A stretch of 64,000 nt of DNA from a virus (Duplodnaviria; Heunggongvirae; Uroviricota; Caudoviricetes). Shown here in pieces: positions 24,373 to 24,866 of this stretch. Each line of letters starts with the position of its first letter. The first letter of the stretch is position 1. A program made the position numbers and the translations under genes. The DNA lies in IMG/VR virus record IMGVR_UViG_2541047857_000014; one strand, written 5' to 3'. The notes below the pieces were generated by a model. It worked only from the letters and a program-made list of their open reading frames with translations, had not been told where the DNA came from and searched no databases.

Positions 24373-24606
24373 TTAATGCAGCCAGCTGTCGTCTTCCCAC
24401 ACCTTCTGCATAATTTTCATCACTTGTTTTCTTTCTTCGTCCAGTTGCAGTCCGGTTAGTTCCACACCGTTAGAGCTACCTTTGCGAATGCGAATTACCG
24501 TTTTGGGATACAGGGGGCGCAGATTGCGGTAAAGCTCGGATTCAAGGGCGTCCAGGGTAGACTGGCTAATCTTCTGCTCTTTATCGATCATTATTTCAAT
24601 GCGCAT
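24373..24606 (-). CDS. DinI-family protein (78 aa from MRIEIMIDK); probable C-terminal part of a Tum-like SOS-inducible antirepressor module
   Basis: MRIEI...ELTGLQLDEERKQVMKIMQKVWEDDSWL parallels E. coli DinI; SD GAGGTGA before ATG. Confidence 0.7.
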   Translation of the reverse strand: MRIEIMIDKEQKISQSTLDALESELYRNLRPLYPKTVIRIRKGSSNGVELTGLQLDEERKQVMKIMQKVWEDDSWLH

Positions 24607-24616
24607 AAAAGTCACC

Positions 24617-24805
24617 TCAGCTGATGACATCCATTGAGCGGTTGTATTCGTGGGTTCTGATTTTTGCCATGAGTTCATCAGTCAATTCAGAAACCCACTG
24701 CAGAGCCAGCCCCTTCTCTTCATCACTACACTCACTAGCCGCTACAAGCTTAAGAAAAAAATCAATGCGCTGGAGCTTCAAAGACTCCAAAAAATAGTCC
24801 TGCAT
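24617..24805 (-). CDS. tum: small protein (62 aa) directly downstream of LexA box; possible N-terminal Tum-like antirepressor part
   Basis: AGGAGG SD 5 nt before ATG; LexA box ~45 bp upstream; 186 Tum is a LexA-controlled antirepressor. Confidence 0.45.
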   Translation of the reverse strand: MQDYFLESLKLQRIDFFLKLVAASECSDEEKGLALQWVSELTDELMAKIRTHEYNRSMDVIS

Positions 24806-24846
24806 CTTTCCTCCTATGACACCACACGCAATGCTGTATGCATAAC

Positions 24847-24866
24847 CACTGTTTATATTTACAGTA
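24847..24866. promoter_or_regulatory. LexA (SOS) box
   Basis: cACTGTttatatttACAGta fits CTGT-N8-ACAG consensus; located upstream of the 62-aa/DinI-like genes. Confidence 0.75.

What the first reader, a model, noticed from the sequence alone, without database searches (positions are those of the whole stretch)
24373..24866. LexA-box-controlled two-ORF module resembling a split Tum antirepressor with a DinI-like half
A near-consensus LexA operator (cACTGTttatatttACAGta) precedes a 62-aa ORF with a strong SD, followed 10 nt later by a 78-aa DinI-family ORF and a terminator. Phage 186 is induced by a single LexA-repressed antirepressor (Tum). Here the equivalent position appears to hold two separate small genes, which would be either a naturally bipartite version or a disrupted one.
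Basis: partly seen in the sequence, partly recalled or inferred. Interest (0 to 1): 0.5.

Follow-up and report, generated by a model that had tools for sequence, protein, structure and literature searches.

The report
Split Tum SOS-induction module of prophage
This is the DNA-damage switch of a Fels-2/186-type P2-family prophage, a LexA-controlled pair of small genes (an antirepressor and a DinI-like protein), and this two-gene form was already described for phages Fels-2 and PSP3, so it is real but ordinary.

Summary
On the minus strand there is a LexA box (24847-24866, 17/20 to consensus). It is followed by a 62-aa ORF (24617-24805) with an AGGAGG ribosome-binding site, a 10-nt spacer, and a 77-aa (not 78-aa) DinI-family ORF (24373-24606).

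The interpretation also holds, in its "naturally bipartite" form. A profile of the 62-aa family matches residues 3-44 of phage 186 Tum (hhalign 94.9 %; HMM 35.4 bits against at most 8.7 for 5000 shuffles). The DinI-like ORF is 41 % identical to Tum 71-145 and starts exactly where 186 has an internal GTG start.

The split is not a lesion. Both ORFs show pN/pS of about 0.1. The two-gene layout recurs in Escherichia, Salmonella, Klebsiella and Yersinia phages with four spacers, all three frame offsets and all three stop codons.

The module is essentially the Fels-2 one (61/62 and 77/77 residues identical). Lemire et al. 2011, citing Bunny et al. 2002, already describe tum as split in Fels-2 and PSP3, and GenBank names the PSP3 genes tumA and tumB.

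It occurs in 1125 of 5426 complete E. coli genomes, so it is already known and of low interest. Side notes: gene A is frameshifted, a PD-T7-1 defence gene lies downstream, and TumA type tracks the N-terminal domain of CI.

The parts
24884..24889 (-). Probable -35 hexamer TTTACA of the SOS promoter (equivalent of 186 p95)
   Evidence: Read from the sequence. It lies 17 nt upstream of TACTGT. Assigned by analogy to the annotated 186 p95 promoter, where the -10 is TACTGT inside the LexA site. The consensus scan did not call it, so this is an inference.
24847..24866 (.). LexA (SOS) box, TACTGTAAATATAAACAGTG on the minus strand. It overlaps the probable -10 hexamer TACTGT (24861-24866).
   Evidence: It matches the consensus at 17/20, is unique in the window, and 0 of 100 shuffles gave a match. 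A core is present upstream of tum/tumA in all 8 phage loci fetched. It is the only invariant block in the 8-phage alignment. A strict core was found upstream of 14 of 20 distant tumA-like genes.
24617..24805 (-). tumA-like gene, 62 aa; predicted antirepressor of the 186-type CI. Its AGGAGG ribosome-binding site lies at 24810-24815.
   Evidence: PHROG 698, E 3.6e-38. 61/62 identical to Fels-2 STM2728. The family profile matches the N-terminus of 186 Tum. pN/pS is about 0.1. The AF2 model is a two-helix hairpin with pLDDT 88.5.
24373..24606 (-). tumB-like gene, 77 aa, DinI family; predicted RecA-filament binder that modulates the SOS response
   Evidence: Pfam DinI, E 6.6e-23. 41 % identical to Tum 71-145. 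Matches the E. coli DinI structure 1GHH, E 2.7e-6. 77/77 identical to Fels-2 STM2726.1. The exact sequence is named 'DinI-like protein in retron Ec67'.
24332..24366 (-). Hairpin directly after the tumB stop, without a U-run; function unknown
   Evidence: RNA fold. Not called by the terminator scan.
24214..24238 (-). Probable intrinsic terminator of the SOS operon: GCCCGCCA/TGGCGGGC stem followed by UUUU
   Evidence: RNA fold, z-score -3.5 for the 191-nt region. Occupies the same position as 186 t95a. Not called by the simple scan, so this is an inference.
30447..31079 (+). cI immunity repressor of the 186 type; the presumed target of TumA
   Evidence: Pfam Phage_CI_repr plus Phage_CI_C. 32 % identical to 186 CI over its full length.

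Best explanation
This is the SOS (prophage-induction) operon of a Fels-2-like member of the P2/186 phage family. It sits in the usual place, between replication gene A and the portal gene.

In an undamaged cell, host LexA binds the box that overlaps the -10 hexamer and keeps the operon off. DNA damage activates RecA, LexA cleaves itself, and the promoter fires. Two small proteins are then made from one transcript.

TumA (62 aa, a two-helix hairpin) is the homologue of the N-terminal half of 186 Tum. It binds the prophage's 186-type CI repressor and stops it binding DNA. This repressor type is not RecA-cleavable (established knowledge of 186, not tested here). Losing CI binding switches on the lytic promoter.

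TumB (77 aa) is a DinI-family protein that binds RecA filaments and tunes the SOS signal. It corresponds to the C-terminal half of 186 Tum, which 186 also makes separately from an internal GTG start.

Shown here: the sequence elements, the homologies, the conservation and the purifying selection. Inferred: LexA binding, TumA-CI binding and TumB-RecA binding.
For: - A near-consensus LexA box, unique in the window. It is invariant across 8 divergent phages while the flanks diverge.
- The position and promoter layout match the annotated 186 p95/LexA/tum region.
- The ORF1-family profile matches Tum 3-44: hhalign 94.9 %, E 4.5e-8; HMM 35.4 bits against a maximum decoy of 8.7. It also matches a Yersinia phage 'tum protein' at 96.6 %.
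- ORF2 is a DinI-family protein. It aligns with Tum from residue 71, which is the annotated internal GTG start of truncated Tum.
- ORF1 and ORF2 are 61/62 and 77/77 identical to the Fels-2 pair.
- Published statements: tum is split in Fels-2 and PSP3, and in PSP3 the upstream gene carries the antirepressor activity (PMC3121763). PSP3 annotates tumA as 'UV induction of prophage' and tumB.
- The prophage's CI is of the 186 type.
- Both ORFs are under purifying selection, and the split layout persists with spacers of 3, 10, 11 and 12 nt.
- tumA-like genes with LexA boxes commonly occur without any DinI gene. This fits TumA being the antirepressor and TumB being an accessory.
Against: - No experiment on this particular module could be found or run.
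- The PSP3 antirepressor assignment is a personal communication cited second-hand, and Bunny et al. 2002 could not be read.
- PSP3 TumA itself is not significantly matched by the ORF1-family profile: 3.4 bits, with 90 of 5000 decoys scoring at least as well (hhalign 8.6 %). The functional transfer therefore rests mainly on the 186 Tum N-terminus.
- Identical TumA proteins occur with CI repressors only 40-60 % identical. This is unexpected for a strictly cognate pair.
- The promoter hexamers are weak, and the consensus scan did not call them.
- Gene A is frameshifted, so in this strain derepression may not yield phage.
Confidence: 0.85

Rival explanations
1. A disrupted tum pseudogene. A single ancestral 186-like tum ORF was broken here by a stop or frameshift, and the two ORFs are decaying remnants.
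For: The two ORFs are in different frames (offset 1). The ORF2 frame is open upstream to 24681, so one indel within ORF1 codons 42-62 could fuse them. The neighbouring gene A really is frameshifted.
Against: pN/pS is about 0.1 in both ORFs at pS up to 0.58. Each ORF has its own ribosome-binding site and start codon. The same split is kept in Escherichia, Salmonella, Klebsiella and Yersinia phages, with four different spacers, all three frame offsets and three different stop codons. It is present in 1125 of 5426 E. coli genomes. All 66 representative relatives of ORF1 are small stand-alone proteins.
Confidence: 0.03
2. An obligate two-part antirepressor. TumA and TumB must act together, for example as a heterodimer that recreates full-length Tum, to inactivate CI.
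For: In 186 the two halves are one polypeptide. The tight 10-nt spacing, with a ribosome-binding site overlapping the stop codon, suggests coupled and roughly equal expression. The pair is co-inherited in the Fels-2/PSP3 lineages.
Against: Many LexA-boxed tumA-like genes have no DinI gene nearby: ESSI-2, ENT90, the Yersinia YenM phages, and 18 of 20 genomic loci. In PSP3 the upstream gene alone is reported to carry the antirepressor activity. In Gifsy prophages, dinI-homologue deletions did not change induction (PMC3121763). 186 also makes the DinI-like half separately.
Confidence: 0.09
3. ORF1 is an unrelated small SOS-induced protein, such as a toxin or regulator. Induction of this prophage works in another way, and only the DinI-like gene is shared with Tum.
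For: There is no Pfam family and no pairwise BLAST similarity to Tum. Databases call it 'hypothetical' or, spuriously, 'levan regulatory protein'. There is no fine co-variation between TumA and CI.
Against: The profile-level homology to the Tum N-terminus is in register, including the conserved Cys and the ALxWI(A/S)EL motif. The locus, orientation and LexA control are the same as tum. CI is of the 186 type, which in 186 is inactivated by Tum rather than cleaved (established knowledge).
Confidence: 0.03

Closest known systems
Fels-2 prophage STM2728 / STM2726.1 (the split tum of Salmonella Typhimurium LT2)
   Same: Essentially the same module. ORF1 is 61/62 identical and ORF2 77/77 identical. 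The 10-nt spacer GGTGACTTTT, the TGA stop, the LexA box and the position after gene A are all the same.
   Different: The host is E. coli. The immunity repressor is only 60 % identical to Fels-2 CI. The downstream cargo also differs: PD-T7-1 here against an unrelated hypothetical gene in Fels-2.
PSP3 tumA / tumB
   Same: A LexA box, then a small upstream gene (60 aa, 'UV induction of prophage'), then a 77-aa DinI-like tumB, all after gene A. By eye comparison of the and translations, TumB is about 80 % identical to ORF2; pN is 0.126.
   Different: PSP3 tumA and tumB are in the same frame, separated by TAG plus 3 nt. PSP3 TumA is highly diverged from ORF1: hhalign 8.6 %, and the HMM match is not significant.
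Coliphage 186 Tum (146 aa) and its p95 SOS operon
   Same: The promoter is LexA-repressed, with the box overlapping the -10. The N-terminal part is homologous to ORF1 and the C-terminal part to ORF2. The internal GTG start at codon 71 coincides with the ORF2 start. A partial terminator and then a cargo gene follow.
   Different: 186 has one fused ORF with a 25-residue linker in place of two genes. ORF1 residues 45-62 have no counterpart in Tum.
E. coli DinI (PDB 1GHH)
   Same: ORF2 aligns over its full length with DinI, including the C-terminal WE..D.W acidic helix, and passes the Pfam DinI threshold.
   Different: ORF2 is phage-borne, co-transcribed with an antirepressor, and only distantly similar in sequence (E 2.7e-6).
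Gifsy-1/-2/-3 dinI-gfoA/gftA LexA-controlled antirepressor operons
   Same: LexA-repressed operons that combine a DinI homologue with a small antirepressor acting on a non-cleavable repressor (PMC3121763).
   Different: The gene order is reversed (dinI first). Homology between ORF1 and GfoA/GftA was not tested here. The phages are lambdoid rather than P2-family.

Membership tests
Tum / TumA antirepressor of 186-like P2-family phages | Sequence homology to the N-terminal (non-DinI) part of 186 Tum | tested here: met
   Pairwise BLAST is negative. The family profile is positive: hhalign 94.9 %, E 4.5e-8, ORF1 3-44 aligned to Tum 3-44; HMM 35.4 bits, with 0 of 5000 decoys reaching it.
Tum / TumA antirepressor of 186-like P2-family phages | Transcribed from a LexA-repressed promoter (SOS box overlapping the promoter) | tested here: met
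   Met at sequence level only. The box matches the consensus at 17/20 and is unique in the window. It is conserved in 8 of 8 phage loci. Actual LexA binding cannot be tested with these tools.
Tum / TumA antirepressor of 186-like P2-family phages | Located downstream of replication gene A in a phage with a 186-type CI repressor | tested here: met
   Gene A lies immediately upstream. CI carries PF07022 plus PF16452 and is 32 % identical to 186 CI.
Tum / TumA antirepressor of 186-like P2-family phages | Binds CI and prevents operator binding; required for SOS induction of the prophage | not testable with these tools
   Known for 186 Tum and reported for PSP3 TumA (PMC3121763). No data exist for this allele.
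DinI family (PF06183) | Passes the curated Pfam DinI model over the full domain | tested here: met
   81.3 bits against a gathering score of 24.2, profile positions 1-63 of 63. Aligns to 1GHH residues 1-77.
DinI family (PF06183) | Binds RecA filaments through its acidic C-terminal helix | not testable with these tools
   The acidic WEDDSW tail is present and aligned with DinI WESADDW. Binding was not tested.
   The hairpin at 24332-24366 has no U-run and was not called by the scan. A terminator-like hairpin followed by UUUU lies 135 nt further downstream at 24214-24238.

The most novel reading that the evidence does not exclude
The Fels-2-type TumA may be a broad-range antirepressor that recognises the conserved N-terminal DNA-binding domain of 186-type CI repressors rather than one cognate repressor. 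One SOS module could then induce, or cross-induce, heteroimmune P2-family prophages.

The basis is that TumA proteins 84-100 % identical to this one occur with CI proteins whose N-terminal domain stays 65-76 % identical while the C-terminal domain falls to 29 %. That is as low as against 186 or PSP3.

This rests on seven phages with no phylogenetic control. Trans-acting antirepressors are already known for Gifsy prophages.
Probability: 0.3. Interest if true: 0.4.

Novelty: already known. Interest (0 to 1): 0.15.

Why it matters
It adds little new biology, because the split tumA/tumB SOS module has been in the literature since 2002-2011.

Its practical value is for annotation. The 62-aa gene is labelled 'hypothetical protein', or wrongly 'levan regulatory protein', in more than a thousand E. 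coli, Salmonella and Klebsiella genomes and phages. It can be named a TumA-type antirepressor on profile evidence.

Recognising the module also identifies which P2-family prophages are SOS-inducible. That bears on prophage-mediated gene transfer under antibiotic stress.

Tried and rejected
- Pairwise BLASTP of ORF1 against 186 Tum found no alignment, so profiles were needed.
- Single-sequence phmmer of ORF1 against 1.8 billion representatives returned 66 hits. Nearly all were small stand-alone proteins, and none was a fused Tum-like protein.
- Pfam, PADLOC and a PDB sequence search with ORF1 or its profile gave nothing.
- The ORF1 profile against PSP3 TumA was not significant.
- The promoter scan called no sigma-70 site, and the terminator scan found nothing after ORF2.
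- The paper search for 'tumA/tumB' returned only noise.
- Bunny et al. 2002 is not held in the library.
- The search for related loci with the full family alignment failed for lack of a conserved stretch. A subset alignment worked.
- A fold search with the two-helix hairpin model was not run, because so simple a fold gives uninformative matches.
- The pseudogene reading was considered and rejected on the selection and conservation evidence.

Full report
**1. What is in the sequence**

The module is on the minus strand. Reading 5' to 3' on that strand, it contains the following elements.
- A possible -35 hexamer, TTTACA (24889-24884).
- Seventeen nucleotides further on, TACTGT, which is the first half of a 20-nt palindrome, TACTGTAAATATAAACAGTG (24866-24847).
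- AGGAGG (24815-24810).
- ATG at 24805, opening a 62-codon ORF that ends with TGA at 24617.
- A 10-nt spacer, GGTGACTTTT, with GAGG overlapping the stop codon.
- ATG at 24606, opening a 77-codon ORF that ends at 24373.

Otherwise the description is accurate.

The 'terminator' needs correcting. The hairpin immediately after ORF2 (24366-24332) has no U-run, and the scan did not call it. A strong GCCCGCCA/TGGCGGGC hairpin followed by UUUU lies about 135 nt downstream at 24238-24214.

**2. Is the LexA box more than chance?**

The 16-nt core CTGT-N8-ACAG alone is weak evidence, with 2 sites in the window against 0.86 expected. The full 20-mer is stronger. It matches the consensus TACTGTATATATATACAGTA at 17/20 and is the only such site in 64 kb. 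None of 100 shuffles produced one.

Comparative evidence matters more. Every one of the 8 P2-family phage loci fetched has a core box 30-60 nt upstream of its tum or tumA-like gene. These are 186, PSP3, Fels-2, 813R9, ENT90 and three Yersinia phages. In an alignment of these upstream regions, the only invariant columns are TACTGTA...ACAGT.

In 186 the site is annotated as the LexA site overlapping the -10 of promoter p95. The window has the same layout. Among 20 more distant tumA-like genes from other Enterobacterales genomes, 14 have a strict core box, mostly 34-54 nt upstream.

**3. What the two ORFs are**

ORF2 is a DinI-family protein.
- Pfam PF06183: E 6.6e-23, 81.3 bits against a cut-off of 24.2.
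- It aligns over its full length to E. coli DinI, structure 1GHH.
- It is 41 % identical to residues 71-145 of 186 Tum, E 3e-24.
- Its Met1 aligns with Tum Val71. That is the GTG annotated in 186 as the internal start of a truncated Tum that 'modulates SOS induction'.

ORF1 has no Pfam family and no BLASTP alignment to Tum. It belongs to PHROG 698, a family of about 63 aa with unknown function. An exhaustive phmmer search returned 66 representatives, nearly all small stand-alone proteins.

An alignment of 28 of these (A1) shows a conserved pattern: D3, E7, R13, a Cys near position 26, W37 and E40-L41. That profile gave the following matches.
- Tum residues 3-44 in register: hhalign probability 94.9 %, E 4.5e-8.
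- A Yersinia phage protein annotated 'tum protein': probability 96.6 %.
- As an HMM, 186 Tum scores 35.4 bits, while 5000 shuffles of the Tum N-terminus reach at most 8.7 bits.

ORF1 is therefore a homologue of the N-terminal, non-DinI part of Tum. AlphaFold2 predicts a two-helix hairpin (helices 2-23 and 28-61) with mean pLDDT 88.5.

**4. Split, not broken**

The two-gene layout recurs in several phages:

| Phage | ORF1 stop | Spacer | Frame offset |
|---|---|---|---|
| Fels-2, 813R9, Klebsiella Kp4845-2, ST15-OXA48phi14.1 | TGA | 10 nt | 1 |
| Salmonella SEN8 | TAA | 11 nt | 2 |
| Yersinia MLG42 | TAG | 12 nt | 0 |
| PSP3 | TAG | 3 nt | 0 |

Against these relatives, synonymous divergence reaches 0.5-0.8, while non-synonymous divergence stays at 0.05-0.13 in both ORFs. 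That is purifying selection on two separate genes.

A single indel in ORF1 codons 42-62 could formally fuse the frames, because the ORF2 frame is open back to 24681. Nothing suggests that this ever was the state of this lineage.

Three architectures exist in the family.
- Fused: 186.
- Split tumA plus tumB: PSP3, Fels-2 and this window.
- tumA alone, with no DinI gene: ESSI-2, ESSI2_ev015, ENT90, the Yersinia YenM phages, and 18 of 20 genomic loci.

This distribution fits TumA being the core function and the DinI-like protein being an optional partner.

**5. Context**

- Upstream is P2/186 replication gene A. Downstream are a cargo gene and the portal gene.
- The prophage's repressor (30447-31079) has the two Pfam domains of 186-type CI and is 32 % identical to 186 CI over its full length. 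This is the repressor class that 186 inactivates through Tum rather than through RecA-mediated cleavage (established knowledge; Shearwin et al. 1998, as cited in PMC3121763).
- The 631-bp module is 100 % identical in E. coli S88 and many other strains. It is present in 1125 of 5426 complete E. coli genomes and in 67 deposited phage records.

**6. Comparison with what is known**

ORF1 and ORF2 are 61/62 and 77/77 identical to Fels-2 STM2728 and STM2726.1. Lemire, Figueroa-Bossi and Bossi (2011; PMC3121763) make three relevant statements.
- Tum looks like a fusion of an antirepressor and DinI.
[quoted passage not shown] E. Christie).

The PSP3 GenBank record names the genes tumA ('similar to 5' end 186 tum; UV induction of prophage') and tumB. 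The exact ORF2 sequence also carries the source name 'DinI-like protein in retron Ec67'.

The finding is therefore correct but already known. What databases lack is the name: ORF1 is 'hypothetical' almost everywhere.

**7. Mechanism, with status of each step**

- LexA represses the promoter. This is inferred from the box, its conservation and the 186 precedent.
- DNA damage leads to RecA-stimulated LexA self-cleavage and transcription of tumA-tumB. This follows from established SOS biology.
- TumA binds CI and releases it from its operators. This is inferred from homology to the Tum N-terminus and from the PSP3 report.
- TumB binds RecA filaments and modulates the signal. This is inferred from DinI-family membership.
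- The operon ends at the 24214-24238 hairpin, possibly with some read-through as at 186 t95a. This is inferred.

**8. Caveats and loose ends**

- PSP3 TumA itself is too diverged to be matched by the ORF1 profile.
- Identical TumA proteins are found with CI proteins only 40-60 % identical. Across seven phages, TumA type tracks the CI N-terminal DNA-binding domain (65-76 % identity) and not the C-terminal domain (29-58 %). This hints that TumA targets the N-terminal domain and may act across immunity types. It is a small, uncontrolled comparison.
- In this window gene A carries a 26-bp tandem duplication that shifts its frame. Induction here may therefore be abortive.

**9. Verdict**

The novelty category is 'already known', and interest is low (0.15).

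Noticed in passing
window 24959-27399 (-), duplication at 25324-25382: Replication gene A carries a 26-bp tandem duplication (CAAGGGGACAGTTATTGCCACGAGTC, 2.3 copies) that is absent from phage 813R9. It shifts the frame, giving a 695-aa ORF plus a 118-aa remnant. RefSeq marks the identical S88 gene 'frameshifted'. The prophage is probably replication-defective.
   Followed up: partly
window 22642-24051 (-): The 469-aa gene just downstream of the SOS module is a PD-T7-1 anti-phage defence protein (PADLOC E 1.3e-196; no Pfam hit). It sits where 186 carries orf97, within the p95 SOS operon. Whether it is read through from the LexA-controlled promoter is unknown.
   Followed up: partly
window 36611-36890 (+): There is a second SOS-box locus: CTGTTTATTTACACAG (36613-36628), then a near-box TACTGTCTACAAACGCAGTA (36640-36659), then a decayed DinI-like ORF starting at 36673 ([11 protein letters not shown]...). 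S88 annotates the ORF as frameshifted with an internal stop. It lies in the neighbouring prophage remnant.
   Followed up: partly
window 30447-31079 (+) compared with L010-L015: TumA type tracks the N-terminal domain of CI and not the C-terminal domain. Phages whose TumA is 84-100 % identical to this one have a CI N-terminal domain 65-76 % identical but a C-terminal domain only 29-58 % identical. For 186 and PSP3 the N-terminal domain is 40-46 % identical.
   Followed up: partly
loci L005, L007, L008, L009, L020, L021, L022-L041: Many P2-family phages and Enterobacterales genomes carry a LexA-boxed tumA-like gene with no DinI-like gene after it. Only 2 of the 20 genomic loci (Mixta, Pantoea) have one. 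The fused 186 Tum looks like the exception.
   Followed up: partly
window 32106-33329 (+): A 407-aa ORF next to the integrase, at the prophage end, has no Pfam or PADLOC match. It may be another cargo gene.
   Followed up: no
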